The notes under the pieces: model-generated | The model's database searches: none | What the model was told of the DNA's origin: nothing | The model's input: only the letters and a program-made list of their open reading frames with translations | Translations under genes and position numbers: made by a program | Assembly: GCF_963921235.1 (NCBI RefSeq) | Contig: NC_086107.1 | Coordinates: 111,354,001-111,418,000, forward strand | Source of the DNA: Mobula hypostoma | Taxonomy: Eukaryota | Reading direction: 5' to 3' | DNA length: 64,000 nt | Shown: positions 21,248-51,642 of the stretch, in pieces | Layout: each line of letters begins with the position of its first letter | Numbering within the stretch: position 1 is the stretch's first letter

Positions 21248-21281
21248 GTCGACGTTTCGGGCCGGAACCCTTCGTCAGGAC
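21248..21281 (-). ncRNA. Minimal type I hammerhead ribozyme motif in a PLE terminal repeat
   Basis: GUC-CUGACGA-A-GGGUUCCGGCCC-GAAAC-GUC-GAC: intact CUGANGA/GAAA core, stem II GGGU/GCCC, palindromic ACGU stem III, GUC cleavage triplet, stem I GUC/GAC. Confidence 0.7.
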
Positions 21282-21927
21282 TGAAGAGGGAGGGGGCAGA
21301 GGACCTATAAAGAAGGTGGGGGGAGGGTGGGAAGGAGAAGGCTGGTAGGTTCCAGGTGAAAAACCAGTAAGGGGAAAGATAAAGGGGTGGGGGAGGGGAG
21401 GCAGGGAGGTGATAGGCAGGAAAGGTGAAGAAAGAATAGGACGCAGATTGGGGAACCGCTTCGTCGAGCATCTCCGCTCCGTCCGCCAAAACAGACAGGA
21501 TCTCCCAGTAGCCACCCACTTCAACTCTGCTTCCCACTCCCATTCAGATATGTCCATACATGGCCTCCTCTACTGCCATGATGAGGCTAAACTCAGGTTG
21601 GAGGACCAACACCTCATATACCGTCTAGGTAGTCTCCAGCCCCTTGGTATGAACATAGAATTCCCCAACTTCTGGTAATTCCTTCCCCCTATCCCTATGT
21701 CACTCTGCCCCCTCCCCCAGCTGCCTATCACCTTCCTCATGGTTCTACCTCCTTCTACTACCCATTGTGTTTTCCCCTAGTCCTTCTTCACCTTTCCTGC
21801 CTATCACCTCCCTGCCTCCCCTCCCCCACCCATTTATCTTTCCCCTTACTGGTTTTTCACCTGGAACCTACCAGCCTTCTCCTTCGCACCCTCCCCCCAG
21901 CCTTCTCCTCTGCCCCTTCCCCCTACA

Positions 21928-21961
21928 ATCCTGACGAAGGGTTCCGGCCCGAAACGTCGAC
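21928..21961 (+). ncRNA. Minimal type I hammerhead ribozyme motif (sense pLTR copy)
   Basis: AUC-CUGACGA-A-GGGUUCCGGCCC-GAAAC-GUC-GAC: core intact, one mismatch in stem I. Confidence 0.62.
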
Positions 21962-24369
21962 CGATCGTTTCCACGGATGCTGCCGGACCTGCTGAGTTCC
22001 TCCAGTGTGTTGTGAGTGTTGCTTTGACCCCAGCATCTGCAGATTATTTTGTGTTGGCAAATATATTGTACTTGCAATGGTACAGCAAGGGTTATCCCAT
22101 TGGTTCCTGGGAAGGCAGGTCTGTTTCATGATGGGAGATTAAGCAGATTGGACCTATAAGTGTTTACAGTTTAGAAGAACGGGAAGTGATCTCATAAAAA
22201 TGTAGAGTGTTTATGGTTTTGGCAAATCACAAAATGGTATTTTTCCTTGGCTGGAGGGGTGGGACGGAAATGGAACCCAACAGGATCAAGCCATTTATTT
22301 TCCTTGAGGTACCAATGACGATTCATTGACTCACTGGAGTGAGTAAGAACAACGGGAACACTCTCTCTTTAAGTGTTCTCTGCAACTGGACAACAAAACT
22401 CAAATGACAGGTTGTGTAATCCTGGTCTTACACAAACAACCATAGGGTGGGAGTAAGATCCCAAAATGGTTTCAGAGAGAATGTGATGGACACTTTTTTT
22501 TTGCTAAACTCAGCTTTCTAATCACAGCAGCTGCTTCTTGTAAAGATCAAAGTGTTGTTTTTGAGTCAGTTAAGATTCCAACTAATAGTCTTTGTTTAGA
22601 TGCTTGTCATAAACAGGAGATGGTCTTCAGTTCTTAATGTGGCAAGCAGTAATCAGCTTGAAGTTGAAAGCACAGCTCTGCAAACAAGCGCTGTCTATTG
22701 AACAGACATGCTGGCCCAGGTTTATTGCTCAAGAGGTGTGGTGTAAGACAATGGGGTAATTTAATTGGGCCTGTTTCAATCTAGACAATGCTAGCTAAGT
22801 TATTTAGTTCAAAGAAGCTTGCAGACAAGACAGATAATCACTTAGCATATCAAGAGCTGATCTACTAATAGTTGGAAGATTATTGTACTCATGAGGATCG
22901 CTTTGCAGCAGTAATTCTGGGTACCTGGGATCTCTGTCACCAGAAGCTTTTAGAGCATCTGTGTAATACATATCTGAAAAAAATCATGTGCGTGAAGTCA
23001 CCCAAGTGGCAAGAAGGTAGTATAAATTTAGAAGGAAGTTGTCTGTTTTGGCAAAGTCCACAATTATTTCTGGTATGCTTCACATATTGGCAATAAAGTG
23101 ATTCTGATTTTGAAGTTCAGGCTTTTTAGGAATGGTCCAGGAACATCAGGAAGAATGACAGAAAGATGGGTCAAATTGAATCCATTCCTCTGCCTTTGAT
23201 TTCTGTGACAGACAAGTGGTTCATCTGTGGCTTTCAGCTTACAGGAATTGTACCTGGGTTTTGCAAATCTTTTGTGTTTTAGAAATAGTTTTTAATTTGG
23301 AACCTTTTTTTCTGAGCTAGAAGTCCTCTGTAAGTTTTAAGTGTGTTTTAAAAGTGTTGTTTGGATTTAAATGTGTATCACTGAAAATAAATAAACTGTT
23401 TAAACTACTTTGTTAGCTGGAAGTATCTTCTCCTTGGTAGGGAGGGTGTACACCGCCCCCCCCCCACTCACCTGCTGGGAACTGGGCGTGAAACTCACTG
23501 TGGAGAATAAACAGGGAAGTAAACTAGTCTTTAAAGATTAAGTAGTTACAGTGTAACCTCCCTTTAGTGGGGCTATCTATAAGAGATAGGGCTTAAGGTC
23601 TTTGTTTGAGTTCAGAAGCTCGTGGTCAGCAAACCCAACACCATCACAGAGGAAAAGTGACTGTGATGATGTCCGAGTTTGAAATGGCATCAACTAGAGT
23701 ACAAGTGGACATTAAAGCAGTCACAAGGCCCTTGGGTCTTGATTTCACTCAAACTGACCACTCGCTCTCACCTCTTGATTTAGTTGAATCAGACCCACTG
23801 GGCCAACAATAAACTAGGACTGAGGTTGTATCTGTCGTCAACCAAGGTTGTCATGGAGACACAAGAGACTGCAGATGCTGGAATCTGGGGCAACAAGCGA
23901 TCTGTCAGGGAACTCAGCAGTGAGGAAAATGGACAGTCGACATTTTAGATCCAGACCTCGCACTTGCTGTCAGTTTTGTTAATGATTTAAGGTGACAACT
24001 TTTACCCCATTGTTCTCTGCACTGAGGCTGGGGCTTGGTCCAAGCTCTGTGACATTTACTCTGCTGTGTGTTGAGCTGAGGCTGAGGCTGAGGGCCTGCT
24101 CTGGGCTTCCTGTCTGAGGGCTCGCATTTGTTCTAAATGCTGTTTGCTTACTTTTATTGTTTGCATGATTTGTTGTTTTTCTCTTTCTCTCTCTCTGCAC
24201 ATTGGGTGTTTGTTGGGTATTTTTTAATGGTTTCTTTTGAGTTTCTTGTTTTGTGGCTGCCTGTAAGGAGATAAATCTCAAGGTTGTATAATGCATACAT
24301 ACTTTGATAATAAATGTACTTTGAACTTTAAATTCGCTTCCTGAAGGTTGTCATTGGTGAGGGGAGGGG

Positions 24370-24890
24370 GTGTGAAGGTAGTGGGGATAAGCTTCCACGA
24401 CCTATTAAATAGATAGCCTCAAATAGCCTCTGACAACCGAGTCCAGCTCCTGGCTGTCACGTGTGGCTTAGCTACTAAGCCCAGTGGAACTGTTTCTACC
24501 GACAGGAGAAGGGGCAAAGGCGAGTTACTGGTGCCTTTAAACCAGTTCCTTTAGACAGGAGGGACTCATCAGCCATGGTTGGCAGCTCATCGAGGAGAAG
24601 GAAAACTCTGATTTCAAACCTCTGCCGCCTTGTGGCTACACCCACTCGTGGGGAAGGCTTTGGGAGTAAACCCCGAGGGAAAAATCCAGAGCTGGTGTCC
24701 CTAAGGCCATCTTACGCTCAGTTCAACGCTGATGGGCAACTCCTGCAATGCTGCTGGTGCTGAACTGTATCAGTCCCTGCCTTTCCTTTGGACTCATTAG
24801 CTGTATGGAGTGGGGGAGCCTGCTGTATGGGGAAAAGCTTGCTCTCCATATCGTACTATCCTGGCTTGTGTATCGCATAGACAGCTAGGA
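24370..24890 (+). mobile_element. RTE-related non-autonomous element
   Basis: 'ggagaaggaaaactctgatttcaaacc' RTE-5'UTR-like motif. A related copy on the minus strand at about 49420-49790. Confidence 0.5.
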
Positions 24891-25832
24891 TAAGAGCCCC
24901 AGTGTTAAAATATCAAACATGTTTACTGTTAAGTTTATTAAAACAGTATTATCATTGCTACTTTTCCATTAACATTGTGCATAACTATTAACACAATTTT
25001 GGTTACTTCTGCTATCTTTGTTATCTAACCCATGTTTGATTAGCTGATCAATAAAGATTACAGCCCTTGATTAAACTCTGCTGAAATCGTTGCCGTAGTC
25101 ATTTTTAGTTTTAAGATAAATTAATATTTTACCATGAGATGCAGTTACTTTCTCCCAGGGCTGCTGTTCGAAGCTGTTGGCTTTGGTCCGGAGCAATTTG
25201 TCTGCAGAATGCCAAAGCTGCGATGTTTCTTTTATCTAAATTGGAAGCTACAATTTCTTTATAGAGGTTGAAAAATTACATTGTAAAAGATTTCATTGAA
25301 TTCTTGGCCTTGCTAATGTACAGTGTTGATCCAAGCCCTGGCCTTTCCATCTATCTACTTCTGATACTGGGTAATTAGGGCATGCAGTAACAAAGGAGGC
25401 TTCTGCTGATCGAGTGCCCAGGCGCATTACTTGAGTAGTAATTCCCAGTCGTGTGATGCACGTCTTTTTAAGTCTGGTCTGATTTATTCGCCTAATTGAT
25501 GAGCCTTGGCAATCACACAATAAATCAGTTAAAAAGCAGTTTCAATGTTTGGAATTTCTTTACAGAAAGGTCTGAGGCTATTGAGTATAATCAAAGCTAA
25601 ACTATAAAGATCTTCAAATACTAAAGCCCTTAAGGAGACAAACTTGAACCTTGTTAAATGCTGCAGCAACTATGAGGGCCAGTGTTGACTGTTCCTGCTC
25701 CTTTATTTAATTTCATTTGTAAATCTATTTACTTTTTTATTAATAATTACAGTACTTCTCAAACTTAAAAATGTGGATTAGCTTCCAGATAAACACCATT
25801 ATCAAAAGAGGACAGCAGGGCTAGAATTCATA

Positions 25833-26043
25833 GTAACACAAAAATGCTGGAGGAACTCAGTAGGTCAGGCAACATCTACGGAAAGGAATAAAGAGTTGAT
25901 GTTTCGGGCCAGATACTGATGTCGGGTCTCAGCCTGAAACATCAGCTCTTTATCCCAATCCGTAGATGCTGCATGACCTGCCGAGTTCCTGCAGTGTTTT
26001 GTGTGGGTTGCTCTGGATGTCTAGCATCTGCAACATCTGTGTT
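25833..26043 (+). mobile_element. Short fold-back PLE-pLTR insertion with 11-bp TSD
   Basis: Inverted arms around about 25912. TSD tagaattcata at 25822-25832 and 26044-26054. Decayed hammerhead core 'ctgatgtc...gaaacatc'. Confidence 0.75.
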
Positions 26044-26079
26044 TAGAATTCATAAATTGCTGAGTAATCTTAGTGGCAG

Positions 26080-26550
26080 CATCTGGCACAAGCAGGACTT
26101 CCCGGAGGCTAAAGCATTTTAATTTTGATTCCCATTCCCATTCTGACATGTCCGTCCAGAGCCTCTCCTTCAACCTGATGGCATAAGTATTGATTTCTCT
26201 TTCCAATAAACAAATTTCACCCCTTTCCCTTCCTCTAATCCCCACTCTGACCTCTCAATTCTTCTCACCTGCCTATTACTTCTCCCTGGGTGCCCTCCTC
26301 CTTCCCTTTCTCCTATGGTCCACTCTCCTCTCCTATCGGATTCTTTCTTCTCCGGCCCTTGACCTTTCCCACCCACCTGGTTTCCCCTATCACCTTCCAG
26401 CTAGCCTCCCCTCCACCTTTTTATTCTGCCATTTTTGCCCTTCCTTTTCGGTCCTGAAGACGGGTCTCGGCCCAAGACGTCAATTATCTATTCCTCTCCA
26501 TAGATGCTGCCTGACCTGCAGAGTTCTTCCAGCATTTTGTGTGTGTTTCT
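26080..26550 (+). mobile_element. Degenerate PLE 3' fragment (GIY-YIG remnant plus pLTR)
   Basis: Similar to 21480-22020. Decayed hammerhead 'gtcctgaagacgggtctcggcccaagacgtc'. Confidence 0.7.
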
Positions 26551-27291
26551 TTCTTCAAAGATAGTATTCATTCTGAGTATTCCCTTGATCTGTCTATAGG
26601 GCTACCTTACCATGACCAGGAAATAATGGATGGGCCAACCACTTAGAAGAGAGCACAACAGAACTTGCCTTATTTACTCCTGACATCCCAGAGAGGAACC
26701 AAGCCACAGTAAACGACACAGTCGTGTAACAGCATGGTACTATTACAACTCAGGGCTTCAAGAGTTCGGAGTTCATTTCAGGCGCCATTAGAATGTTTAT
26801 GCGCATGGATCTCCTCCGGGTGCCCCTGTTTCCTCCCACAGTCCAGAGACATACCAGTTAGTAGGTTAATTGGTCTTTGTAAATTGTCTTGTGATTAGGC
26901 TAGGGTTACATTGGTGGGTTGTTGGGGAGTACAGCTTAGTGGGCCAGAAGGGCCAATTCCGCGTTGTATCCCTAAATAAAAGAAACACTTGACATTCCTT
27001 CCTGATCCTAGGCTTTTGATTGTTGAACCCAACGTTAACTGTTGACAGCAACCTTCTAATCCAGGGGTTCCCAACTTGGGGTCCATAGACCCCTCGGTTA
27101 ATGGGAGGCATCTATGGCATAAAAACACTGGGAGCCCCTGCTCGAATCTAAGACCAATGGAAATCCACCAACTCCACGGGTCATCTTAGTTACGACACTG
27201 GAGGAGGCCATTCGGCCCACTGTGCCTGTGATATAACCATCCCAATGCCAGCTTTCGCATCGGTAGTCTGGCAGCTTTGAGTTTGCATCCA

Positions 27292-27672
27292 AGTAAGGCC
27301 AGTGATGTTGTGGGGATGGAACTGGACTCTCTCACGGTGGTGTCTGAAGAGAGGATGCTGTCCAAGTTGCATGCCATCTTGGACAATGTCTCCCATCCAC
27401 TACATAATGTACTGGGTGGGCACAGGAGTACATTCAGCCAGAGACTCATTCCACCGAGATGCAACACAGAGTGTCATAGGAAGTCATTCCTGCCTGTGGC
27501 CATCAAACTTTACAACTCCTCCCTTGGAGGGTCAGACACCCTGAGTCAATAGGCTGGTCCTGGACTTATTTCCTGGCATAATTTACATATTACTATTTAA
27601 CTATTTATGGTTTTATTACTATTTAAGTATTTATGGTGCACCTGTAACGAAAACCAAAACCAATATGACTAT
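27292..27672 (+). mobile_element. Rex/Babar LINE 3' fragment (young family)
   Basis: ORF 27277-27552 is nearly identical to the 3' part of ORF 33290-33823. Confidence 0.85.
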
Positions 27673-28685: not shown

Positions 28686-29279
28686 TTATATTTTGAATGG
28701 AAATTCCTCAATATAATTCCGAAGGCTGGGCCTCAGAGGCAGCTTTGTCACTCCGTCTCTCCCAAAGTGGCAGATAATGTTCTTTCTGCATAGCTGCTGT
28801 AGTTTGAGGACAGGGTTTTTCCGCAGCGGGGTGGAAAAGACAATCGTGTCTCCTCCCTCAAAGACAAAAGGCTTGCGCCGGCTGCTGTCCACGCAGTATT
28901 CCAGCAGCTTCACCATGCAGTCAAAGTGAGTGTTATCGAACCAGAAGAGTTCTTTCTTGAACTGGATTCGCATGCTGACGGGCCCCCTGTGGGCCCGGAC
29001 GCTCAGACTGAACAGGTGATCGGCCTGGGTGCTATCCCGGACGAGGAAGGTGCCCACGGGCTCCGCCTTCAGCATGGCGTGAGCCTTCTCCACGGGCAGC
29101 GGCCCCCAGTAGAATCCGCCCTCGTTCAGGGAGCGCAGGCTTCGCTCCACCGTCTCCCTCTCTTCGTTCTGGAACGTGCGGAAGTGGGTGGGAGACTCAG
29201 GCGGAGGGCGCTGTAACTGCGGCGGAGGGGACTGTCGCACGTCTGCCCGGGCATCCAGTTGGTTTCTCCCTCCGACCAT
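28686..29279 (-). CDS. SOCS1: Suppressor of cytokine signaling 1-like protein (197 aa; KIR, ESS, SH2, SOCS box), CDS in one exon
   Basis: Intact GC-rich ORF: KIR 'THFRTF', 'GFYWGPL', 'LKAEPVGTFLVRDS' SH2, C-terminal 'LQQLCR...LPLRPSLRNYIEEFPFKI' SOCS box. These closely parallel vertebrate SOCS1 motifs (THFRTF, GFYWGPL, AEPVGTFLVRDS, FPFQI). Paralogue identity (1a vs 1b) is unresolved. Confidence 0.93.
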   Translation of the reverse strand: MVGGRNQLDARADVRQSPPPQLQRPPPESPTHFRTFQNEERETVERSLRSLNEGGFYWGPLPVEKAHAMLKAEPVGTFLVRDSTQADHLFSLSVRAHRGPVSMRIQFKKELFWFDNTHFDCMVKLLEYCVDSSRRKPFVFEGGDTIVFSTPLRKNPVLKLQQLCRKNIICHFGRDGVTKLPLRPSLRNYIEEFPFKI

Positions 29280-29280
29280 C

Positions 29281-29328
29281 TCAGATGGACCTCCAGCTCC
29301 GGAGAGGTCCCATCTTCAGCCGCCTCAT
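29281..29328 (-). promoter_or_regulatory. Upstream ORF (MRRLKMGPLRSWRSI*) in the SOCS1 5'UTR
   Basis: ATG at 29328, second in-frame ATG at codon 6, TGA at 29283-29281, then one base (29280) before the main ATG at 29279. Confidence 0.7.
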
Positions 29329-29339
29329 GGATAAATGTC

Positions 29340-32300: not shown

Positions 32301-32594
32301 CTTCCAGCCTGAGAATACGAACTTTTAATCCTTAAACCCTTAAAACCTTCTCCACAAGGAATTATTTCTTTGGCTAGTCTCCAACAACTACTTCCTGAAA
32401 CTGCCTTTGGAAGATATCTTTTTGTGCAATTGTGTGACGAGGTACAATCAACAGCTTATAGAGGGAGCAACCACTTGCCAACATTCCCTCTTAAAATTAG
32501 CACCACTGTTGAACTGGGCTGTAGAATTGTTATTTTTCTTGTATTTTGATGTCCCTGTTTGTACTTTTAAATAATCACCTATACACACGTAATT

Positions 32595-32799
32595 AAAAGC
32601 TGCTGGTGAATGCAACAGGCCAGGCAGCATCTCGAGGAAGAGGTACAGTCGACGTTTTGGGCCTCGTCCTGATGAAGGGTCTTGGCCCGAAACGTCGACT
32701 GTACCTCTTCCTAGAGATGCTGCCTGGCCTGCTGCGTTCACCAGCAACTTTGATGTGTGTTGCTTGAAATTCCAGCATCTGCTGATTTCCTCGTGTTTT
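32595..32799 (+). mobile_element. Short fold-back PLE-pLTR insertion with 11-bp TSD
   Basis: Arm 32599-32663 is complementary to about 32684-32746. TSD cacacgtaatt at 32584-32594 and 32800-32810. Confidence 0.85.
32666..32699 (+). ncRNA. Minimal type I hammerhead ribozyme motif
   Basis: GUC-CUGAUGA-A-GGGUCUUGGCCC-GAAAC-GUC-GAC. All core positions intact; predicted cleavage after C32696. Confidence 0.72.
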
Positions 32800-33399
32800 C
32801 ACACGTAATTGTTCAGTGAGTATTTCAGTGGTTGCAGTCGCCTCCACTGAAATGTACCACATTTTTCTGGAAATTTGTTGGTTTCAGTGATGGGTGTCAC
32901 ATTACTTGAATCTGGCTATCTGATTGGTTAACTGTTACCTGTTAGAATTTTAACAGCATTCAATGACAAAGAAGGCACAACAGTGGCGATTTTTCATTGG
33001 GAATTTGAGGAGAACTGATATGTCACCGAAGGCAAGTAAATTTCTACAGACGTACTGTGGAGAGCATTCTAACTGGCTGCATCATTATCTGGTGTGGGGA
33101 TGGGTGGGTGCGGGAGCTACTGCACTAGATCGATACAAGCTGCAGAGAGATGTAAACTCAGTCAGCTCCATCATGGGCACTAGCCTCCATAGTATCCAAG
33201 ACATCTCTAAGGAGCGATGCCTCAAAAAAGGCAGCATCCATCATTAAGGGCCCCCATCACCCAGGACATGCCCTGTTCTCATTGTTACCATGGGGAAGGA
33301 GGTACAGAAGCCTGAAGGCACACACTCGGCGATTCAGGAACAACTTCTTCTTCTCTGCCATCTAGTGTACCTGTTTCCGAGTTGTTTCCAATACATACC

Positions 33400-37171: not shown

Positions 37172-40100
37172 GGGTTTTAACAATTGATCCACTTTAAAAG
37201 GTGATAACCCCTGAGTGCTTCCCCTTTTACAACATTACCTCAGCAAATATTTCATACACTTCCTTCTTAGTTATAATGGCCACGTCATCCCCTCTTTTGT
37301 ACAGAGATGCAGTGTTTGGAGGTCAGTGCACCCTCCACCGTGGTGTGGTATCAAAAGGTCTTCACTCCCAAGTAGGAATGCCTCCACCACCCTCCATCAT
37401 CAAGGACCCCACCATCCAGACCATGCCCCCTTCTCACTGTTAACATCAGTAATAAAGTGCAGGAGCCTTAGGTCCCACAGAACAAGGTCCAGGAACAGCT
37501 GTAACCCCTCAGCCATCAGGACCTTGAAGCAGAGTGGATAACTTCACTCACTCCAACACCAAACTGTTTCCACAAACTATGGACTCACTTTCAAGGACTC
37601 CTCATCTCATGCTCTCGGTATTTATTTCTTATTTCTTTTTGTATTTGCAGTTTGGTTGTTTGTCTGGGTGAGGTCTTTCATTGGTTCTGTTGTGTTTCTT
37701 GGACTTACCGTGTATGCCTGCAAGCAAGTGAACCTCAGAGCTGTATATGGTGACGTATATATACTTTGATAATAAACTTCCTTTGAGCTTTGAACCACTG
37801 GTTTGTAAACTGATGTCCTACGTGTCCAGCCAGCACCTTTGCAGAACGCCAGGCTACAGCAGCTTTGTAGCATGCACCGAAAGGTGTGAACCTATTGATA
37901 AGTGTGTGATGTTATGCAAAGGTCATAGACTCATAGAAGACTTCACAACAGAAACAGGCTCTTTGGCCCAGCTAGTCTGTGCCGATCTGTAACTCTGAGT
38001 CCCACTGACCTGCACCCAGATCATACTCCTCCCGTTCATGAACTTATCCAAACTTCTCTTAAACATTGAAATCGAACCCAAATCCACCACTTCCACATTT
38101 CACACTCTCACCATCCTCTGAGTACTCTGACAGACTGTGGGTGTAGAGAGATGGGTGCACATTGACAAAGTTCAAAATAAATCTGTCATCCAAGCACACA
38201 TATGTCACCATATAATATGCACTTTCTTGTGGGCATTCACGGAAAAAAAAGAATTTCAGGATGTATTTTGTATACGTTTCTCCGACGTTAAATGTACCTA
38301 TTGAAACCCAAACACAATAAAATCAATGAAAGGCCACACCCAACGGGCGGACAGACAACCAATGTGCAGAAGATGACAGACTGTGCCATTACGAAAAGGA
38401 AGGAAAAAATAATTTAAAAAATAAGCAATAGATATTGAGAACATGAGACAAGGAAGTTCAAGGTGGCAAGACGGCACTGGAGAACCATGGTGATGAGTTG
38501 TGGGCAGACAAGCTCTAGAACCCGGGGGGGGCAAAAAAAGAGAGAGACAGACATATCATGTTGACAAAGTGGAAACAGCAGACATAAACTGGGCTAAAAA
38601 CTACATTAAGAAATACAGAGATAAAAAATTAAGTAAGTAATACAAAACAGAGAGCAGAAGTAGTGGGGTGGGGTTCGTTGTCCGTTCAGAAATCTAATGG
38701 CGGCGGGAAGAAGCTGTTTCTAAAACGTTGAGTGTGTCTCTCTTGGAGACTTGGATGGGTTCAGACCGAGCTGTGAATTCTCCCATGGACAAATAAGTGC
38801 CAATATTTTGTGCAAATATTGGCACAAAGTGCGCATCCTCAGATTGTGTTGTTCTCACAGATGATGCATTTCACTGTACACGTGATCAATAAATAAATAT
38901 ATTCTAATCTAATCTACCGAGAGCATTATACAAATATACTTTCCCTGTCCCTTTCTGCCTGGATCTCTTTATTGATCCTTTCCACTGACACTCCCTTTGT
39001 CATTCCTTACATTAGAAGCCAACCACGTCAGGCTATGTAACACCATAAGATATAGGGGCAGAATCAGGCCATTCGGCCCATCGAGCCTGCTCCGCCATTT
39101 CATCATGGATGATCCATTTTCTCTCTCGGCCCTAATTTCCTGCCTTCTCCTAAAATATATTTAAGATAAGGTGGGATAGATTTTTGCACAGTAGGGGAGT
39201 TAAGGGTTATGGGGAAAAGGCAGGCAGGAGGAGATAAGTCCATGGCCAGATCAACCATGATCTTATTGAATTACGGAGCAGACTCAATGGGCCAGATGGC
39301 CGACTCCTGCTCCTACTTCTTATGTTCCTATGTTCTCCACATATCTCTTCATACCTTGACAAATCAGGAATCTATCAATCTCTGAGTATGGGAGAAGTAG
39401 CTCCATTGCCACAAGGTTCTGAGCCATTACCGGGGCCGACAAATACTAGAACACCAGTGTTCGCAGTTGTTAACAGAAGAAGCAGACCAGAGACCTGGAC
39501 CAACAGGTCGAAGCTGCACCATGACAGTTTACTGAAAATCATCTGGGGCGCCGCAGTAGATTTGGGGCGTAGCGCAATGCTTTACAGCACCAGCATTCAA
39601 GGATCGGGGTTCAATTCCCACCACAGGCTGCAAGGGTCTGTGATGTCCTCCCTGTGACGCCACGGGTTTCCTTCGTATATTTCCGTTTGCTCCCACAATC
39701 CAGACGCGTACGGTTAGGGTTAGTGTTCCGTTGGTGCTGGAAGCACAGCAACGTATCCTCGGACTCTGCAGGTCGATGATGCAAACAAGGCATTTCACAG
39801 CATGTTTTGATGTAACAAATTAAGCTAATCTTCAAATCTTTATCTTTTGAAAAAAAACTAGACTCTTGTAATCTGCTCTGTGAATGTCCCCCACGGTTGG
39901 AAAACTGCCTTTGGGACTCACAGATCTAATCTAAAGCACAAAGGAATGCTGGAAATCCAGAGCAATATGCACACAAGATGCTGGAGGAACTCAGCAGGTC
40001 AGGTAGCATCTATGGAGGGGAACAAACAGTTGATGTTTCGGGCCGAGACCATTCATCAGGACTGGCTGCCTGACCTGCTGAGCTCTTCCAGCATTTCATG

Positions 40101-43091
40101 TGTGTTACTCAGGTTGAATCTTAATGCCCCTTGAGTGGTATCCAAAACTGCAGTGTTAAAAGAGAATGAAATCAAATAGAGAGCCTGGCATCAACTTGGC
40201 ACTGAACTAACACACAGTTAAGTTGTTTCCTGTCCACTTAACCCTGTTAGTTCCTCCTCTACATGAACAACAATTGTTCAAACTGCGGTGGAGAAAATCG
40301 CAGTGGCTCAAGAAAGAAAATCACCACCATCTTCTCAAGGGCTAATGCTGGCCTTGTCAACAACACCTGAGGTCATGGGTGAAAGGTGAAATGTCTAAAG
40401 GGAAGTTAAAGGGGTACTTTTTCTCTCCGAGGGTGGTACGAGTGTGGAACGAGTTGACAGCATAAGAGGCTCGATTTCAACATTTAAGAGAAGTTTGTAT
40501 AAGTACATGGACAGGAGGGGTATGGACAGTTATGGTCCAGTTGCAGATTGATGGGCCTTGGCAGAATAGTTCGGCATGGACTAGATGGGCCGAAGGTGCT
40601 GTAGTGCTCAAATAAAAATCTTACTGCCTCTAACAAGAATAAATGCATTGCTTCCTACAAAATATTGGGAGATCTTCCTGAGTAAAATCAAAAAGCAGTG
40701 AAGATAGTGTTTTATTTCAGATTTCCAGCTGCAGCAGTTTTCCTCCATCTTGCTATGCAGAAGGCAAAAGGGAAGTAGAAGGGAAGGACATGTCGAGCTC
40801 TCCCAACCCACAGTGTAGAGCTTGTCATTGTCAACTACGTATTTTTAAACACTAAGTTTTGACTGGACCAGAGAGATAACACTGTCCCTGAGGCATTTAA
40901 AATGTGCTTTTAATCTTATCATGTTTTCTGTCTGTGTTGCGTGTGCAGTCCCACCCTGACAATGAGACTTTTCGGATACCAAGTTCCATCAAAGCCACAG
41001 TTGTGCACATCACGTGATTGCACATTTTCTCCCTAATCCCTTTTGGAAAGCCCAACGATTCCAAATTATGGCTTTTCAACCGAACAGCCATGTTTCATGT
41101 TGTCAATGCCATAGAAGCCATCTCTTTAGCCCGAGAGCATCCATGATTTTGAGCAGTGTCTCCTCCTGCCTCTTCGTGTTATCAAACGTGGCTCAGAGCT
41201 AGATTAAGTCTCAGCTCAGAAACTCAAACACCTAATCCAGCTCGACATTTCAATCACATCCCTGTGCTGCTGGGAGATGTTGCCCTTAGGTAAGATTTTA
41301 AACTGACCCCACCTTGCTCGATAGCACATGCCAGTCCTCATCTGGGGAAGAGCAGTGGAAAGGGTGAGCAGCTTCAGGTCAACATCTCTGAAGATCTACC
41401 CTGTGTGCAACATACTGATGCAATTACAAAGAAGGCACAACAGCGGCTATATTTCATTAGGAGTTTGAGGAGATTTGGTATGTCACCAAAAGACTCGCTA
41501 ATTTCTACAGGCGTGCCATGGAGAGCATTTTAATTGGCTGCATCACCGTCTGGTATGGAGGGGCCACTAAACAGGATTGGAAAAAAACGGCAGGAAGTTG
41601 TAAACTCAACCAGCTCCATTATTTGCAGTAACCTCCCCAGTATTCTGGACACCTTCAAAAGGTGATGCCTTAAAAAGGCCGCATCCATCATTAAGGACAC
41701 TCATTACCCAGACCATACCCTCTTCTCATTGCTACTATCAAGGAGGAGGTACAGGAACCTGAAAACACCCACTCACGATTCAGGAACAGCTTCCTCCCCT
41801 CTGCCATCTGATTCCTGAATGGACATTGAAGTCATAAACACTACCTCACTACCTCTTTGTCTCTCCCTTTTTGCACTACTTTTAATTTATATATGTTTCT
41901 TATTGTAATTTATATTTTTGATTATGTATTGCAATGTACTTCTGCTGCAAAACAACAAATTTCATAACCTATGCCAGTGATAATAAACCTGTTCAGATTC
42001 TCCAACAAGAAAGGTAAGGTTAGTTTAGTGCCCTGGGAAAGATTGATTTCACAATTGTTACTCAAAACCTGATATTTGATTTCACTGCTGTTTGCACTAG
42101 TCTGCTGAGCACAAATTAGCTGCCACATGGTATTTGGGTGAGGCTAGAACCAGAGGTCATGGGTTAAGGGTGAAAGGTGAAACATTTAAGCAGAACACAA
42201 GGGGAACCTCTTCACTCAGAGGGTGGTGAGAGTGTGGAATGAGCTGCCAGCGGTGATTTGATGCCCACATTTAAGAGAGATTTTGATAAATACATGGATA
42301 GGAGGGGTGTGAACTGTAGACTGGGTGCAGGCTAATGGAACTAGGCAGACTAGATGGACAACACACGTGAAATTCTGGAGGAACTCAGCAGGTCAGGCAG
42401 CATCTATGGAGAGGAATAAACAGTCAACATTTTTGGGCTGAGACCCTTCTTCAGGACTGATGGGGCATATGGGGTGACCAGTGTGGCACTGCATCACTAT
42501 ATATGATGAGGGGCCATATACATATTCCTCTCCTTGGATACAAGAGGTTCTGCAGATGCCTGCAAAAGATGTCTGTTTATTCCCCTCCATAGTGCCGGGA
42601 TGAATTGAAAAGATCGGGTACAGGCCACATTGATGTGGTGGACTTCAGGTCTCAGAACGTATTGAAGTGACTGAAGCCGCCGACGATTTCGGCACCGAGC
42701 CAGACTGAAAAGGTCAGTGTGTCGCTGCTCCACTCTGAGTTGAACTAAGAGTCTGTGGACTATCTCTCTACTTGGACTTCTATTCAGAATGCTATTTGCT
42801 TGTGTTTATTATTATTTGCATGATTTTTTTAAATCTCTGCACATTCAGTGTTTGATGGTCTTTTTTAAAAAATGGGTTCTTTGGGGTTTCCTTTTCATGG
42901 CTGCCTTATAGCAGATGAATCTCAAGGTTGTCTAATGTATATATTGATAATAAATGTACTTTGAACTTTGAAATAAATGCATCTGGGTATGGACAAAGTG
43001 GGTTGTGTGTGCAAGCAACAATTTCGAAGTTTGAGGATGACACAAAACTTGGCAGTAGTGAAGAGGATATGACAAATAACAGCAGAATATA

Positions 43092-43320
43092 TATAAGCAA
43101 CACACACAAAATGCTGGAGGAACTCAGCATCTATGGAGAAGAGTAAACAGTTGACATTTCAGGCCGAGACCTCTTGTCAGGTCCTGATGAAGAGTCTCCG
43201 CCTGAAACGTCGACTCTATACTCTTTTCCATAGATGCCCCCTGGCCTGCTGAGTTCCTCCAGCATTTTCTGTGTGTTGCTTCGATTTCCATCATCTGCAG
43301 ATTTTCTCTTGTTTGTGAAT
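43092..43320 (+). mobile_element. Short fold-back PLE-pLTR insertion with 11-bp TSD and hammerhead core at 43181-43214
   Basis: TSD agcagaatata at 43081-43091 and 43321-43331. gtc-CTGATGA-agagtctccgcct-GAAACGTC-gac, with a decayed stem II. Confidence 0.8.
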
Positions 43321-44408: not shown

Positions 44409-45954
44409 ATCTCTAAGAAAAATAAAATAAGTGAAGAGAACTACAGAGATGAATTTTTAGGAATAATAAGGAGAGGTGTAAAGAATAACCATTTTTAAAG
44501 GATTCAGGAGCAGGATAACCGTAGCTACATAAGCACAAGTCACTGACAAAGGTTAGGCATGTCAAGACTGGTGATTAATAAGATAAATAAGAGCTTATTC
44601 AATTCCGGGCTTTTTTAAATGGCATAAAAATTAAAAGTAGGTAAGACATGCTGATGACTTTGGATGTCAGTTGATTGAACATAGAATATAGAACGTAGAA
44701 CAATATCACATAGTAGAGACCCTTCAGCCCATAATGTTATGCTGACCCTTTAGCCTACACCAAGATCATTCTAACACTTCCCTCCAACATAGCCCGCCAG
44801 TTTTCTTTCATCCATGTGCCTATCTAAGAATTTCTTAAATGCTCTTAATGTGTCTGCCTCTTCCACCACGCTTGGCAACACGTTCCATGTGCCCACCGCT
44901 CTCTGTGTAAAGAACTCACCTCTGACATCCCGCTATACTTTCCTCCAATCTTCTTTCAGTAGCATGGATATCAATTTCTCCTGCCAGTAAACAAGTACCC
45001 CCCCCCCGCCCGCCAGCCTCTATTCCCTACTCTTATATCTTTTCACCTGCCTATTACTTCCCCCTGCGTCCCTTCCTTTTCCCGTTTCTCCTATGGTCCA
45101 CTCTCCTTTCCTATCAGATTCCTTCTTCTCTAGCTGTTGATCTTTCCAGCCCACCTGGCTTCACCCATCACCTTCCAGCTAGCCTCCTTCGCCTCCCCGC
45201 TTCTTTCTCAGTCCTGAAGAAGGGCCTCGGCCCGACTGTCTATTCACTCCCACAGACGCTGCCTGACCTGCTGAGCTCCTCCAGCATCTTGTGTGCGTTG
45301 CTCTGGATTTCCAGCGTCTCATGTGTTAATGATAATGGTTATCTTCTTTACGTCAGAGTAAAACGTTTTTAACCAATTTGGTGGAGTTTTAGATCAGCTA
45401 AAAGATAGAGTTGATGAGGGCAATGCAGCCAACTTGGTAAACATGGAGACACTGGAGACCACAGATACTGGTTTCATGGACTGCTGATGATTCAGATCAA
45501 CAGATGAAGGGTCCCCGACAGCCCATTTCCCTCCACAGACCTGCTGAGTGCTTCCATCATTTTCTGTGTTGATGTAGAATACATCCTTTTCCAGAGAAAT
45601 TTTGATGATATACAGCATTAGAGGGCATCTGGACAAAGTTGAAGCACTTAGGCCACAGAGGGTTATTGAGAGCATGCCTACAGAGAACGTCCTGGTGAAT
45701 GGTTGTTTTTGTTTTGGGCTGGAACAATGGGAATAGCTGAGCTCCATCAGGACTGATTTTACGGCCACTGCAAATTTCCCGGATTTATATTAGTAACAGA
45801 ACTGAGTGTGCAAACAACAATTTCTAAGTTTGTGGATGACACAGAACTTGGCAGTAGTGAAGAGGATGTGATGAACAACAGTAGAATGTAAACAGGTTGG
45901 AAGGGAGGGCAGATATACTGACTGGTGCCAGATGAAGAGAAACTGGAGAGGATG

Positions 45955-46066
45955 GTGTGTGTGTGTGTGTGTGCGCGTGTGTCTGATGTGTGTGTGTGTG
46001 TGTGTGTATGCGTGTGTGTGTGTGTGTGTGTCTGATGTGTGTGTGTGTGTGTGTGTGTGTGTGTCT

Positions 46067-46102
<36 letters not shown>

Positions 46103-46104
46103 TG

Positions 46105-46137
<33 letters not shown>

Positions 46138-46220
46138 CGTCTGCATCTGTGTGTAAGTGTGTGTGTCTGCATGTCTGTGTGTATATGTGCACCTCTGTGT
46201 GTGTCTGTGTGGGCGTGTGT
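45955..46220 (+). repeat. Interrupted (GT)n microsatellite with periodic CTGA/CTGG interruptions
   Basis: Direct reading. Confidence 0.92.
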
Positions 46221-46737
46221 GGTGATTGCTTCATGAATGAGTTACTGAACTAGAAATTTGGACAGCAGAGTTCAAATTTCCCATGGCAGCCGAGGAAATT
46301 GGTTGCATGTTAAAAATCTGGAACATAAAGACTCTAATCTTCGACCGAAACAAGCCACTGGACTGTTGTAATATCTGAGTAGGAAGTATGTTGCCTGTGC
46401 TCTGTGTGGTCAAAGAACAAAACATTGTACAACACTGAAATGTACCCTTCAACCCACTATGTCCAGGCCAAACTCTTCACTAATCCCACATGCATGCCAG
46501 ATGAGGAACAACTACTCACACCAACCTTGCCTGCCCCATTCATCTTCTGTAGCCGTCTAGGATATGACACATGAATTACTCATACCAGCAATTTTCAAAT
46601 GTGACAAGGCTTCTGCCCACGTTAGCACTTTAAGCCAGAGTTACTGACCCCAACAACATTTCTGGGTGGGGGGGTGGAGATTTATCTTCATCTCCTCTCT
46701 CATCACTCTACCTTAAATCTACATTTATGTTCGATGT

Positions 46738-46885
46738 AAACAACAGGAATTCTGCAGATGCTGGAAATTCAAGCAACACACACAAAAGTTGCTGGCGAAG
46801 GGCCTCGGCCTGAAACGTCGACTGCACCTCTTCCTAGAGATGCTGCCTGGCCTGCTGCGTTCACCAGCAACTTTGATGTGTGTTG
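46738..46885. mobile_element. Short rearranged PLE-pLTR insertion with about 14-bp TSD
   Basis: Same subfamily as 32595-32799. Flanks tttatgttcgatgt / tttatgttctatgt; hammerhead 5'-truncated. Confidence 0.7.
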
Positions 46886-47159
46886 TTTATGTTCTATGTG
46901 CCATGTTCCATAGTTCTAAAGTTCCAAGTCCTAAAGTTCTACTGAATGTTGTATGTTCCATAACTCCAACCTGCTCAAACTTTATGCATGATTAAAATTT
47001 CTAAAGAAATTTAATGGGAATTCAAAAGGCCTGATGAGTTTGTGGATCCTTTAGTTCCTAGGAAAGAAGACGGATCATTCACACTTGATTAAAAATCGGG
47101 ACACTGACAGGATGCAAAGTTGGGCTGAGAGGAGTTCCATCTGGAGAGATGAGAGTAAG

Positions 47160-48205
47160 TAGGATAGACAAAGGAAAACTGGTGGATGTTGTGTACTTGG
47201 ATTTTCAGAAGGCATTTGACAAGGCGCCACACATGAGGTTGTTCAACAAGACAAGAGTCCGTGGTATTACAGGAGAGATACAATCATAGATAAAGTAGTG
47301 GTTGATTGGCCGGAGGCAAAGAGTCAGACTAAAGGGAGTCCTTTCTGATTTTCTGCTGGTGACTACTGTTCCACATGGGCCAGCGTTAGAACCGCTTCTT
47401 TTTACATTGTATGTCAGTGATATGGATGATGGAATTGCTGACCTTGTGGTCAAGTTTGCGGATGAAACAAAGGGAGGCGGAGATGCAGGTAGTATTGAGG
47501 AAGCAGGGAGGCCACAGGAAGATTTAGACAGATTTGGAGAACGGGCAAAGAAGTAGCAGATGGAATATATTGTAGGGAAGTGTACAGCCAGGCACTTTGG
47601 TTGATGAAATAAAAGCATAAACATGGATAGAATTCAAAAACCGGAGGTATAAAGGGACTTGGGACTCCTCGTGCAGGATTCCCTAAAGGTTAATTTGTAG
47701 TTTGAGTCAGTAGTGAAGAATGCAAACGCAATGTTAGCATTAATTTTGAGAGGACTAGGATATGAAAGCAAGGATGTAATGCTGAGGCTTTATAAGGCAC
47801 TGGTGAGCAGTTTTGGGCCCCTTATTTAAGAAAGGATGTGTTGACATTGGAGAGGCTTCAGAGGAGGTTCATGAGAATGATTCCGGGAATGAAAGGCTTT
47901 TCGTACGATGAGCAATCATTGGCGCTAGGCCTGTACTCGCTGGAATTTAGAAGAATAAAGGAGGATCTCATTGAAACCTATTGAATGTTGAAAGGCCTAG
48001 CTAAAGTGGATGTGGAGAGGATGTTTCCTATGGTGAGGGAGTCAAGGAATAGAGGGCACAGCTGCAGAATAGAGGGACATCCATTTAGGATGGGACGAAG
48101 GCAAGAGAATGGAGTTGAGAGGGAAATGGTTCAGCCATGATGAAATAACAAAGCAGACTCGATGGGCTGAATGGCCTAATTCTGCACCAGTGTCTCATGG
48201 TCTAA
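47160..48205 (+). mobile_element. Older CR1 RT/3' fragment
   Basis: 'gatgttgtgtacttggattttcagaaggcatttgacaag' (DVVYLDFQKAFDK), 'KFADETK'; multiple stops. Confidence 0.85.
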
Positions 48206-51200
48206 GTGATTCACTTTGGAATATCAAACTGGAAGGCAGAATACAGGGTTAATGGCAACACTGTCAGCAGAGTGAAGGAACAGAGGGACCTTGGGGTCCA
48301 CACCCGTAGACCCCTCGACGGCGCCGCACAGGTTCACAGGCAGTATTTCCCTTCCAAGTTTCAAATTAAGTTTATTGTCAAAGTACCTACTGGATGTATG
48401 TCACCATATACAACCCTGAGATTCTCTCTGGAGCGAAGCAGGATGGGAGAGGTGACTTGTTAGAGGTGTACAAGATGATAAAGAGGCATGGATGAAGTGA
48501 ACAGACAGGGACTTCCCCGGGGAGCAAATGGTTAACACAAGGGGGCATAATTTTAAGATGGAAAGAAATAGGGGATTTCAGAGATACATTTTTTTTTAAC
48601 ACAAAGGGAGGTGACTATGTGGAACCCAGTACAGGGGTAGCAGCAGGGGAACATTCATTAAGGATAATTAATTTTTTTAAATTTATTGAGATCCAGTGTG
48701 AAGTAGACCCTTCTACACTGTGAGCTTCCCCCCCCCCCCACCCCCAGATTTAACCCTAGCCCAATCAAAGGCACTTTACAAAGAACAATTAACCTACTAA
48801 CCGGTACACCTTTGGAGCTTGGGAGGAAACCAGAGCACCCAGGGGAAACCCATGCCTTCACGGGGAGAATGCGTGAGCTCCGGCGGGAATTGAACTCGCG
48901 TCACTGGTGCGGTGAAGCAGTGCACTGGCCACTATGCCACCGAGCCGCGCTGTGCTGTTATGTCCCACGTATCTACGGGGGACTGGGTGAGCATACAAAA
49001 AAAGAGGCGGACGGACCGGTGTGCGAGAGTGGGCGAAGACATATGCTTTGGTATAGACTGCGCTGCATACTATGTAACTTGATGTAAAGTACCCTTCTCT
49101 CTTGTATGTGGCTGCCACTTCATCTGTATATTGTTTCCATTTGTCAGACTTTCGACTCTGCACGGTCATCACAAATCCCTCATGACTAACCATCAACACC
49201 AAATCATGATTCATTCGGCCATCAAACCAGATAGCTTCCCACCCACCAACTCCCCCCCGCCAATAATCTGTGTCAGCTTGCCTCCATTTAGTATTACCTT
49301 ACTTTAATAAAAAAAAACAAGTTTATTCAGAATTAAAAAAACAGTATTTACAAGAATAAACCATACACTGCCTTTTCATTCTTTACAGACAATGCGTTCA
49401 GTAGTGTTTGATAGAGGCCCTCCAATGGTTCATGGATGTTGTGTCCTAGCTGTCTGTGTTCGATACACAAGCCAGGGCAGTACAATAATGGAGAGCGAGC
49501 TGTTGCCCATGTAGCGGGCTCCCCCTCTCCATGCAGCTGATCAATCCAAAGGAACGGCAGAGGCCGATTCTGTTTGGCACTGGTGGCGTCGCAGGAGTTG
49601 CCAGTCAGCGTTGAACTCAACGCAGGACTGCCTCAGGGACTCCAGCTCTGGAACTTTCCCTTGGGATTTACTCCCGAAGCCTTACTCATCAGTGGGTATA
49701 GCCACAAGCCAACGGAGGTTTGAGATCAGAGATTTCCTTCTCCTACTGGAGCTGCCATCCACAGCTGACAAGCCCCACCTGCCCGAGCTCAACCACATAA
49801 ATGCTTGCTGACAGTTCAGTTACAGTTCTTAAAACTAATAGCACTGCTTCCACCCAAGGGCCTTCCCATGCTGTACCTTACGTCTGCATGGGCTGAAGTT
49901 CTCATACCAAGGACATACGTTCATATAATGAATGCTGGCTGGTATTCCAGCTTCTCTCCAACAACTTAACTAGTTCAGGGATTTGGAATTTGCTGACCTC
50001 CAGCAGAAATATTCCCATTTAGAGTCATAGAAACAGGCCCTTTGGCTCATCTAGTCCGTGCCGAATTCTTCCCATTCCTATCAACCTGCACCTGGAGTAT
50101 CGTCCTCCACTCCTCTCCCGTCCGTGTACTTACCCAAACTTCTCTTAAATGTTGAAATCGAACCGGCATTTACCACTTGCACTGGCAGCCCGTTCCGCAC
50201 CTGAAGTTCTCCTTAAACATGTCACCTTTCACCCCTGACCCACGACCTCTAGTTGTAGTCTCATCCGAGCTTAGTGGGGGAAAGCCTCTCTGCATTTACC
50301 CTACCTATACCCCTCATAATTTTGTCTACCTCTATCAAATCTCCCCCCCACAGTGGGTGAAGTTAGATTCAGTGAACATCAGCATTCTTGAGGAATGCAG
50401 AATATGTGGGCTGGGATTGGATTCTCATCTCGCTTTCAGCAGAGCTCTCTTCTAATGAAGGTACCTAGTGCAAGTCTACGAGCACCTCTTCAACTGATCC
50501 CGGACGTTCCAGGCATAAGTCCCACTCCAGCAACACAAATGCACAGATTCCGACAGAGGTTCCAGGATAGTAACAGAAGATTTCTATTCCGGGAGATACT
50601 ACCTTTCACTACAAACTGAGGACCTACCTATTCTCTGAAATGCCTAAAAGAAAACAAGACTGGTACCTTTACTAATATTAGACCATAAGACATAGGAACA
50701 GAGTTCAGCCCATCAAATCTGCTCCACCATTCAATCACGTCTGATTTATTATCCCTCTCAACCCCATTTGACACCCTGACTAATCAAGAATCTAACAACC
50801 TCCAATTTAAGGATACCCAGGGACTTGGCCTCCATACTGTCTACAGCAATGAATTCTATATTCACCACCCTCTGGCTGAAGAAATTCTTCCTCATATCTT
50901 TTCTAAAGGGACATCTGCCAGGATAATCAAGGACACGAGCCACCTAGCCAACAGACTTTTCGTCCCTCTTCCCTCCGGGAGAAGGCTCAGGAGCTTGAAG
51001 ACTCGTACGGCCAGATTTGGGAACAACTTCTTTCCAACTGTGATAAGACAGCTGAACGGATCCTGATCCGGATCTGGGACGTACCCTCCAAATATCCGGA
51101 CCTGCCTCTCGTTTTTTTTTTGCACTACCTTACTTCCCATTTTTCTATTTTCTATTTATGATTTATAATTTAAATTTTTAATATTTACTAATTTTAACTA

Positions 51201-51339
51201 TCTTTAATATTTTTAATATTTAATATTTGTAATCCAGGGAGTGTGAAGCGCAGAATCAAATATCGCTGTGATGATTGTATGTTCTAGTACCAATTGTTTC
51301 GCGACAATAAAGTATAAAGAATACCAAAGTTAAGAATAA

Positions 51340-51642
51340 ACTCTTCTCAAGCTTCCAGCAGGGTACAGGTATCCATTTTACCTGACATTTTTTCCAAAAA
51401 TACTGTATTCAGAAATATTACACAATAAAGTTATTGATTTTACCTGACGTTTCGATGACAAACTCCGCTACCTCATCAGGGATGATGCCTAGGCGTGTCT
51501 AGTCCGGTGGTATATATGCTCAACTCCCGCCTTCCGTCCGCCTGATTGGCTAGTCCTCAACCAATCAGGTTTCCGCTATCCCACCTTGTTTACAATCGAA
51601 TTCCAGTTCTTACTTGGAGTGAGACCTTTGTCTTTGTCAAGA
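51340..51642 (-). mobile_element. Second PLE family 3' end/pLTR with a hammerhead-like motif at 51443-51481
   Basis: Minus strand encodes 'KDKGLTPSKNWNSIVNKVG*' (resembles the PLE C-terminal N-[RK]-D-x-G...W motif), followed by CC-CUGAUGA-GGUAGCGGAGUUUGUCAUC-GAAAC-GUC-AGG. Confidence 0.6.

What the first reader, a model, noticed from the sequence alone, without database searches (positions are those of the whole stretch)
21248..51481. Hammerhead ribozyme motifs scattered through the window in Penelope-like terminal repeats
Seen: the abundant short repeat contains (A)GUC-CUGANGA-A-GGGU(N4)GCCC-GAAAC-GUC-GAC. Cores are intact at 21248-21281(-), 21928-21961(+) and 32666-32699(+), and at 43181-43214(+) with a decayed stem II. 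Decayed copies lie at about 14565(-), 15821(+), 19390(-), 25915(+), 26451(+), 40030(-), 42425(-), 45210(+), 46796(+) and 62865(-). Established: PLEs carry minimal type I hammerheads whose short palindromic stem III (here ACGU) favours cleavage as dimers. Inference: at more than 10 copies per 64 kb, the genome could hold a very large number of such motifs, some placed sense within host pre-mRNAs. The extra A after CUGANGA is a family-wide variant.
Basis: partly seen in the sequence, partly recalled or inferred. Interest (0 to 1): 0.75.

Follow-up and report, generated by a model that had tools for sequence, protein, structure and literature searches.

The report
Ray Penelope transposon's hammerhead stubs
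The scattered motif is real: it is a known type of tiny self-cutting RNA motif, carried here in the end repeat of a Penelope-like jumping gene of a cartilaginous fish (likely a ray) in about 58,000 exact copies, but the scattered copies are likely inert, and many break off just in front of the motif, likely because the element's RNA starts there.

Summary
The motifs are at the stated coordinates (14 copies vs 0-1 by chance). They lie in the terminal repeat of an RT + GIY-YIG Penelope-like element with the Neptune-type CX4CxxC linker; full-length copies exist elsewhere in the genome. The architecture, including the extra A and palindromic ACGU, is the published PLE minimal hammerhead, so the kind is known. 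Only 2 window copies pass a full descriptor. Genome-wide there are 57,914 exact motifs, 78% with G10.1·U11.1, and about 0.7 million relics by extrapolation, above the published counts I saw. Intact copies in myosin-gene stretches are not depleted in sense (16:11), so harm to host pre-mRNAs is unsupported. 5' ends pile up 2-7 nt before C3 (17 of 92; 4.9 vs 0.39%/nt) and 80 of 92 extend past the cut site. Templates were therefore uncut or re-ligated, and likely often began at the motif. This scan has noted the same element and pile-up in other shark/ray genomes. Cleavage was not tested.

The parts
21190..22055 (+). 5'-truncated PLE insertion: inverted arm (21189-21440, minus), GIY-YIG C-terminal remnant (21440-21679), pyrimidine-rich 3' UTR, hammerhead and tail; 15-bp target-site duplication at 21175-21189 and 22056-22070
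21248..21281 (-). min-HHR with intact core, 4-bp stem II, 3-bp stem I; C3 at 21278, predicted cut 21251/21250; lies in the inverted arm
   Evidence: predicted buried in the whole-insertion fold
21928..21961 (+). min-HHR with intact core, stem I reduced to 2 bp
32595..32799 (+). short fold-back insertion (arms 86% complementary over 158 nt) whose junction lies at the hammerhead's 5' edge; 11-bp target-site duplication at 32584-32594 and 32800-32810
32666..32699 (+). min-HHR with intact core, G10.1-C11.1, 3-bp stem I; predicted cut 32696/32697
43092..43320 (+). fold-back insertion with hammerhead 43181-43214 (stem II mismatch, G10.1·U11.1) and a decayed antisense partner; 11-bp target-site duplication
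46733..46888 (+). fold-back stub starting at C3 (core A6G); 9-bp target-site duplication
25833..26043 (+). older fold-back stub with broken core; 11-bp target-site duplication
14464..15910 (-). older PLE 3' fragment, 72% identical to full-length copy L043 over 1.3 kb, with endonuclease C-terminus (14852-15250), broken hammerhead at about 14565-14596 and inverted arm 15672-15910 carrying the broken 15821 copy
26090..26551 (+). old PLE 3' end with broken hammerhead at 26451
19321..19424 (-). decayed hammerhead-plus-tail stub
39946..40113 (-). decayed stub with short inverted arm
42358..42460 (-). decayed stub
44974..45319 (+). decayed 3' UTR plus stub with a deletion in the hammerhead
62796..62897 (-). 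decayed stub
51443..51483 (-). second, unrelated minimal hammerhead family (2-bp stem I, 6-bp stem II in better copies), decayed here; preceded by CCAAT- and TATA-like words up to about 51580

Best explanation
The motifs are the minimal type I hammerhead carried in the terminal repeat of a very abundant, likely Neptune-clade, Penelope-like retroelement, and the scattered copies are 5'-truncated or fold-back insertions whose ribozymes are likely inert. Shown: the full element runs hammerhead, about 140 nt of 5' UTR, RT + GIY-YIG ORF, pyrimidine-rich 3' UTR, hammerhead, tail. Insertion 3' ends cluster about 65 and 95 nt past the cut site. Most 5' ends lie upstream of the cut site and pile up 2-7 nt before C3. 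Inferred: the protein primes internally in the tail, as shown for the anole element PAc, and copies uncut RNA. Many templates likely start at an initiator just 5' of stem I, so the enzyme runs off there and leaves 100-135-nt hammerhead stubs; longer tandem read-through RNAs give the partial tandems. Any cleavage would happen in the parent RNP or in tandem dimers, not in lone relics, which decay neutrally.
For: Element anatomy: RVT_1 and GIY-YIG below curated cut-offs; 634 relatives at E<=1e-20; best named 78% Hypanus, 71% Rhincodon. Motif matches the min-HHR definition. Two of three stem I pairs are compensatory against the Acropora Neptune motif. 3' ends at +90-99 (17 of 64 rows) and +120-129 (35 of 64). 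5' pile-up was first seen (24 of 61 non-edge rows in -20..+9) and repeated in an independent tail-anchored set: 33 of 92 in the same window, 17 of 92 in -7..-2, 4.9%/nt vs 0.39%/nt, p 6e-11; without an adjacent inverted arm 9 of 60, p 5e-6 (the narrow window was picked after seeing the data). AT-rich words at about -36..-28 in three subfamilies, TATA-like in one; CCAAT plus TATA about 37 nt before C3 in the second family. Inertness: 0 of 30 intact copies reach 0.5 pair probability for stem I or II in 280-nt context, and 11 of 30 have an antisense copy within 2 kb upstream. Non-CpG core positions are no better kept than neighbours, and CpG decay hits G12 (26% A). Published lone min-HHRs did not cleave. 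PAc's needs protein and is not needed for insertion.
Against: No RNA data, so no start site or cleavage is shown. 16 of 22 copies anchored at the ORF start that reach +7 run well upstream of -25, so many templates do not start at the motif. The upstream tract also reads as a branch point, pyrimidine tract and AG. Three of 92 5' ends fall exactly at the cut site against 0.27 expected; one is explained by stem I microhomology, and only 1 of 60 non-inverted copies ends there. Equilibrium folding ignores co-transcriptional folding, tertiary contacts and protein. Neptune placement rests on a motif, not on a tree.
Confidence: 0.8

Rival explanations
1. The pile-up of 5' ends is a reverse-transcriptase stall or cDNA fold-back caused by the hammerhead structure, or by protein bound to it, on a longer template, not a transcript start.
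For: The peak matches the outer edge of the 5-bp stem I (-5..-1). 33 of 93 tail-anchored copies have an inverted arm directly upstream, and some junctions use stem I complementarity (L276, L086).
Against: The peak persists in copies with no inverted arm (9 of 60), several with clean target-site duplications. Copying melts the 3' strand of stem I before it reaches -5 (inference). TATA-like words sit at the expected distance.
Confidence: 0.25
2. The hammerhead is active in the parent element: tandem RNA is cut and re-ligated into circles, and copying round the circle gives the partial tandems (model of PMC4209133).
For: Partial tandems are common (16 of 29 ORF-start copies extend beyond -25). 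The motif is kept across subfamilies. There is a small excess of ends at the cut site. Short tandem arrays with 2-4 hammerheads exist.
Against: A ligated junction cannot be told from uncut RNA in DNA. PAc insertion does not need cleavage, and no reads ended at its cut site. In the retrozyme preprint 8 of 9 Xenopus dimers did not cleave. The double-hammerhead fold scores -17.9 against -35.3 kcal/mol for the best dimer fold.
Confidence: 0.25
3. Dispersed copies cut host pre-mRNAs often enough to matter.
For: About 96,000 descriptor-positive motifs are extrapolated (65,000-135,000), and sense copies occur within myosin-gene stretches (16 in 1.0 Mb).
Against: No sense depletion: 16:11 for intact copies (p 0.44; 95% CI 39-78% sense), 27:18 for core letters intact, 87:89 for all copies. 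Same-strand intact pairs occur in 1 of the 10-kb loci. The fold is predicted to be buried. The test is small, and part of the stretches is only inferred to be intronic.
Confidence: 0.08
4. The 5' ends mark a 3' splice site at the start of stem I, as in D. virilis Penelope, so stubs come from spliced or intron-processed RNA.
For: A branch-like word, pyrimidine tract and AG lie right before stem I. The Penelope intron ends at the 5' end of helix I.
Against: No shared upstream exon sequence precedes the stubs; host target DNA abuts them.
Confidence: 0.08

Closest known systems
Minimal type I hammerheads (min-HHR) in pLTRs of metazoan Penelope-like elements (Cervera and De la Pena 2014, PMC4209133)
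   Same: CUGANGA plus an extra nucleotide, short stem I, loop-less palindromic stem III, U-rich 5' flank, place in the pLTR, mostly single dispersed copies. G10.1·U11.1 also occurs in listed coelacanth, Xenopus and cichlid motifs.
   Different: No cartilaginous fish in the parts of the S3 alignment I read. Stem II is 4 bp, shorter than most. 57,914 exact motifs against about 4,000 (coelacanth) and 9,000 (Xenopus), found by different methods. Subfamilies share one stem sequence instead of being highly variable.
Neptune-clade EN+ PLEs (PMC8557442; Acropora digitifera Neptune in PMC4209133 Table S1)
   Same: RT, then a CX2-5CxxC linker (here CX4CxxC), then C-terminal GIY-YIG; partial tandems, inverted 5'-truncated arms, a 30-35-nt optional tail; a near-identical hammerhead layout with compensatory stem I pairs.
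   Different: No tree was built and Nematis shares the linker motif. The 5'-end pile-up at the hammerhead was not found in the papers searched.
PAc, Poseidon of Anolis carolinensis (Frangieh et al. 2024, PMC11167929)
   Same: Two internal start sites about 30 nt apart downstream of the hammerhead; uncut RNA as template.
   Different: In PAc the ORF begins in stem II. Here the apparent ATG lies about 140 nt past the cut site and the two main 3' ends lie in the 5' UTR.
Non-LTR retrozymes (bioRxiv 10.64898/2026.07.22.740005)
   Same: PLE pLTR-derived, hammerhead-bearing short units; tandem arrays of 262-435 bp exist in this genome.
   Different: The window copies are single or inverted insertions with target-site duplications, not tandem arrays.

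Membership tests
PLE min-HHR (type I) | CUGANGA(+N), stem II, GAAANNUH and stem I of at least 3 bp (published descriptor) | tested here: met
   2 window copies and 32 in 1.164 Mb pass my script version of the descriptor, 0 in reversed sequence (published descriptor seen)
PLE min-HHR (type I) | Palindromic 15.2-16.2, no loop 3 | tested here: met
   ACGU; C-G in 77 of 146 copies, most others are CpG decay
PLE min-HHR (type I) | Located in both pLTRs of a PLE, sense to the ORF | tested here: met
   L043 has copies before and after the ORF
PLE min-HHR (type I) | Compensatory changes in stems | tested here: inconclusive
   Only one-sided changes among subfamilies; 2 of 3 stem I pairs compensatory against the Acropora Neptune motif, compared by eye
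PLE min-HHR (type I) | Self-cleavage after NUH (dimer or protein-assisted) | not testable with these tools
   No RNA run on record holds the stretch
EN+ Penelope-like element | Single ORF with RT and C-terminal GIY-YIG | tested here: met
   Open frames of 798-949 aa; RVT_1 E 1e-4 to 4e-4 and GIY-YIG E 2e-3, both below curated cut-offs; 634 relatives
EN+ Penelope-like element | pLTR/partial tandem, inverted 5'-truncated arm, optional 30-40-nt tail | tested here: met
   definition
Neptune clade | CX2-5CxxC linker between RT and EN | tested here: met
   CKRNKCYTC in L043, L044, L045, L046; shared with Nematis
Neptune clade | Groups with Neptune references in an RT tree | not tested
   No labelled references in hand
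Non-LTR retrozyme | Tandem units each with a hammerhead | tested here: not met
   Not in the window; met at L281, L282, L175 elsewhere
Rfam hammerhead families | Covariance-model match | tested here: not met
   lack of stem III is the likely reason (inference)

The most novel reading that the evidence does not exclude
In this ray Penelope-like element the transcript begins at the first base of the hammerhead, so the ribozyme is a cap-proximal switch: with the element's protein, or in tandem RNA, it cuts off the capped first 32 nt. Run-off copying of the uncut RNA has seeded about 58,000 exact and about 0.7 million total ribozyme stubs, the largest genomic ribozyme load I found on record, and a fraction could be cut in trans within host RNAs when the element's protein is expressed.
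Probability: 0.15. Interest if true: 0.65.

Novelty: new member of a known kind. Interest (0 to 1): 0.32.

Why it matters
The kind is published, so the finding is ordinary in type. Two measured points are useful. First, the load of exact motifs (57,914) exceeds the counts I saw in print for vertebrates (4,000, 9,000 and 14,255, by other methods). Second, tens of thousands of young insertions record where reverse transcription started and stopped. That makes the open question of what PLE hammerheads do testable from DNA plus one 5'-end sequencing experiment: templates were uncut or re-ligated, and the commonest stop is the motif's 5' edge.

Tried and rejected
Rfam scans found no hammerhead. The RNA-run search listed no RNA holder. 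Contigs of 4 coded runs of uncertain kind laid on 20700-26700 showed only that the repeat is abundant in organisms A, B and C; they show no starts or ends and I drew no dating from them. A metagenome scan for related elements gave 1 remote locus with no hammerhead match. Pfam on 69 unmasked ORFs of the window and its 100-kb flanks (33 from the window, 36 from flanks, a subset of those listed) found no host exon, only one weak mucin-like hit. Short exons would be missed, so genic context stays open. G10.1·U11.1 as a new variant was rejected because precedents exist. G·U as mere CpG decay was rejected for the young subfamily: it is in the main element of all nine loci L043-L051 and in 45,430 copies that keep neighbouring CpGs. 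Spliced-exon origin of the stubs lacks a shared upstream exon. Chance was rejected (0 hits in reversed controls). Literature searches found no paper on this element's hammerhead or on 5'-end pile-up at PLE hammerheads. The library lacks most subscription papers and Repbase. Supplement file 1 of PMC4209133 and the preprint's supplements, which cover one chondrichthyan, were not seen and may bear on novelty.
Full report
Observation. The four named motifs are at the stated places. A fuzzy search finds 14 copies with up to 6 substitutions, against 0-1 in each of 10 simulated windows, and an HMM built from 73 seed copies gives 21 window hits. Scoring 15 copies by hand-set coordinates: 21248(-) and 32666(+) have an intact core, 4-bp stem II and 3-bp stem I. 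21928(+) has only 2 bp of stem I. 43181(+) has a stem II mismatch. 40059(-) keeps core letters but no stem I. The other ten have broken cores. Rfam gives no hammerhead hit.

What carries it. Two window copies follow the C-terminal end of an endonuclease frame and a pyrimidine-rich UTR. That protein piece has 188,934 first-look candidates in the 3.48-Gb genome, of which 150 were scored. I fetched 10 of those with long open frames. L043 is full length: inverted stub, hammerhead, 5' UTR, ORF, 3' UTR, hammerhead, tail. The ORF has RT and C-terminal GIY-YIG matches below Pfam's cut-offs and a CX4CxxC linker. PMC8557442 (passages seen) gives that linker as a mark of Neptune and Nematis. The best named relatives are from Hypanus (78%), Rhincodon and Chiloscyllium (71%), then marine invertebrates, so the host is a cartilaginous fish, likely a ray. 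Five window insertions have 9-15-bp target-site duplications and inverted arms; a sixth tested (40 kb) has no duplication.

Known kind. PMC4209133 (main text parts 1-2 of 4; supplement file 2 parts 1-2 of 3; file 1 not searched) defines PLE min-HHRs with the extra nucleotide after A9 and the palindromic 15.2-16.2. It reports them in Neptune elements of fishes, counts about 4,000 in coelacanth and 9,000 in Xenopus, and found lone motifs inactive and dimers weak. Its Acropora Neptune motif has the same layout, with 2 of 3 stem I pairs changed on both sides (compared by eye). PMC11167929 (parts 1-2 of 4) shows for the anole element two internal RT start sites, protein-assisted cleavage and uncut RNA as the main template. 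The retrozyme preprint (abstract, most of Results, passages; supplements not seen) covers one chondrichthyan and a maximum of 14,255 copies. PMC2377424 (passages) places the Penelope start site 46 nt before a 75-nt intron.

Load. Exact 34-nt patterns give 12,484 copies with G10.1-C11.1 and 45,430 with G10.1·U11.1, with 0 in reversed controls. In 1.164 Mb not chosen for the motif (window, 100 kb of flanks, 1.0 Mb of myosin-gene stretches), a general descriptor finds 32 motifs, all of this family and 0 in reversed DNA; the HMM finds 232. These extrapolate to about 96,000 (65,000-135,000) and 690,000, from a non-random sample. G·U marks the young, ORF-bearing subfamily and has published precedents. 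That it lowers activity is recalled, not tested.

Conservation. Among 146 ungapped copies (of 160 covering the motif, of 232), subfamilies share the same stems with only one-sided changes. CpG decay hits G12, 16.2 and 1.1, and non-CpG core positions are no better kept than their neighbours. This fits neutral decay after insertion.

Can the copies fold? In whole-insertion folds, stems I and II have probability 0.0 for all four named copies. Of 30 intact copies with enough flank, none reaches 0.5 for either stem in 280-nt context, and 11 have an antisense copy within 2 kb upstream. A short G-C copy does form both stems, but its core letters pair with each other. These are equilibrium predictions without protein.

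Host transcripts. The only host coding sequence found is a SOCS1-like frame at 28689-29315(-). No hammerhead copy was shown to be inside a transcript. In myosin-gene stretches, intact copies are 16 sense to 11 antisense, and all copies 87 to 89; core-intact 27:18 against broken 34:30. There is no sign of purging, but the test is weak and about a third of the stretches are inferred extensions beyond matched exons.

Where copies start and stop. 3' ends cluster at +90-99 and +120-129 from C3 (17 and 35 of 64 rows), the PLE tail signature. In one search, 24 of 61 non-edge rows had 5' ends in -20..+9 (3 edge rows dropped; some rows belong to other subfamilies or are two arms of one insertion). I then anchored on a tail word alone (62,768 exact copies) and examined 93 of them near the start of contig C1; one ending at the anchor was dropped and 25 run beyond -350. 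In all, 80 of 92 extend past the cut site, 33 end in -20..+9 and 17 in -7..-2. That is 4.9%/nt against 0.39%/nt downstream and 0.15%/nt upstream; without an adjacent inverted arm it is 9 of 60. Three end exactly at the cut site (0.27 expected), a weak hint of some cut templates. Against a single start site: of 30 copies anchored at the ORF start (553 in the genome; one left out as unalignable), 22 reach +7, 6 stop in -25..+7 and 16 continue into an upstream tandem copy.

Mechanism. Shown: anatomy, counts and end positions. From the literature: internal priming and protein-assisted cleavage. Inferred: a start site at about -8..-4. Initiator-like words sit there (consensus recalled), AT-rich words lie about 30 nt upstream in three subfamilies, and a second, unrelated hammerhead family in the window (about 51443-51483, minus; 11 exact copies of the probe) has CCAAT and TATA words at the matching distance, with 3 of 11 copies ending at -11..+1. 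Priming in the 5' copy of the tail and running off that end gives the 100-135-nt stubs; read-through or circular RNA gives partial tandems. Stalling or fold-back at stem I and a splice acceptor remain rivals.

Earlier notes of this scan (listing only; consulted after I had written this reading) describe the same element and pile-up in other shark or ray genomes. They are not independent support.

Verdict. The feature is real and of a known kind, with a very high copy number and an informative truncation pattern. The dispersed copies are likely inert. New member of a known kind, interest 0.32.

Noticed in passing
window 28689-29315 (-): Single-frame SH2 + SOCS-box gene, best solved relative SOCS1 (E 3e-33); the only host coding sequence found in the window.
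   Followed up: partly
window 51443-51640 (-); L284-L294: Second minimal hammerhead family (2-bp stem I, 6-bp stem II, unrelated stem sequence) with CCAAT and TATA words upstream; older and rarer; its parent ORF was not found.
   Followed up: partly
L281 1996-3028, L282 1558-1982, L175 889-1920 (reverse-complement coordinates): Tandem arrays of 310, 262 and 435 bp with 4, 2 and 3 hammerheads, retrozyme-like and the best natural dimer candidates.
   Followed up: partly
L163-L192: About a third of ORF-start copies end at +275..+347 from C3, suggesting a third RT start region inside the ORF.
   Followed up: no
window 9762-9828 (+), 48875-48946 (-): tRNA-like matches above Rfam's cut-off, likely heads of tRNA-derived SINEs.
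   Followed up: no
window 10978-14107 (+), 8408-9090 (-), 54926-55411 (-), 62075-62745 (+): Young APE-type LINE (endonuclease + RT) and 93-95% identical 3' fragments.
   Followed up: no
window 52065-54013: Cluster of short direct and inverted repeats resembling DNA-transposon ends or a MITE.
   Followed up: no
window 59728-59811: Long near-perfect hairpin with only sub-threshold miRNA-family matches.
   Followed up: no
G000:C68:15.30-15.91 Mb: Tandem cluster of at least eight compact myosin genes.
   Followed up: no
protein P0001: A Hypanus protein named 'divergent protein kinase domain 1C isoform X2' is 78% identical to the PLE ORF: a likely mis-annotation or exonised PLE.
   Followed up: no
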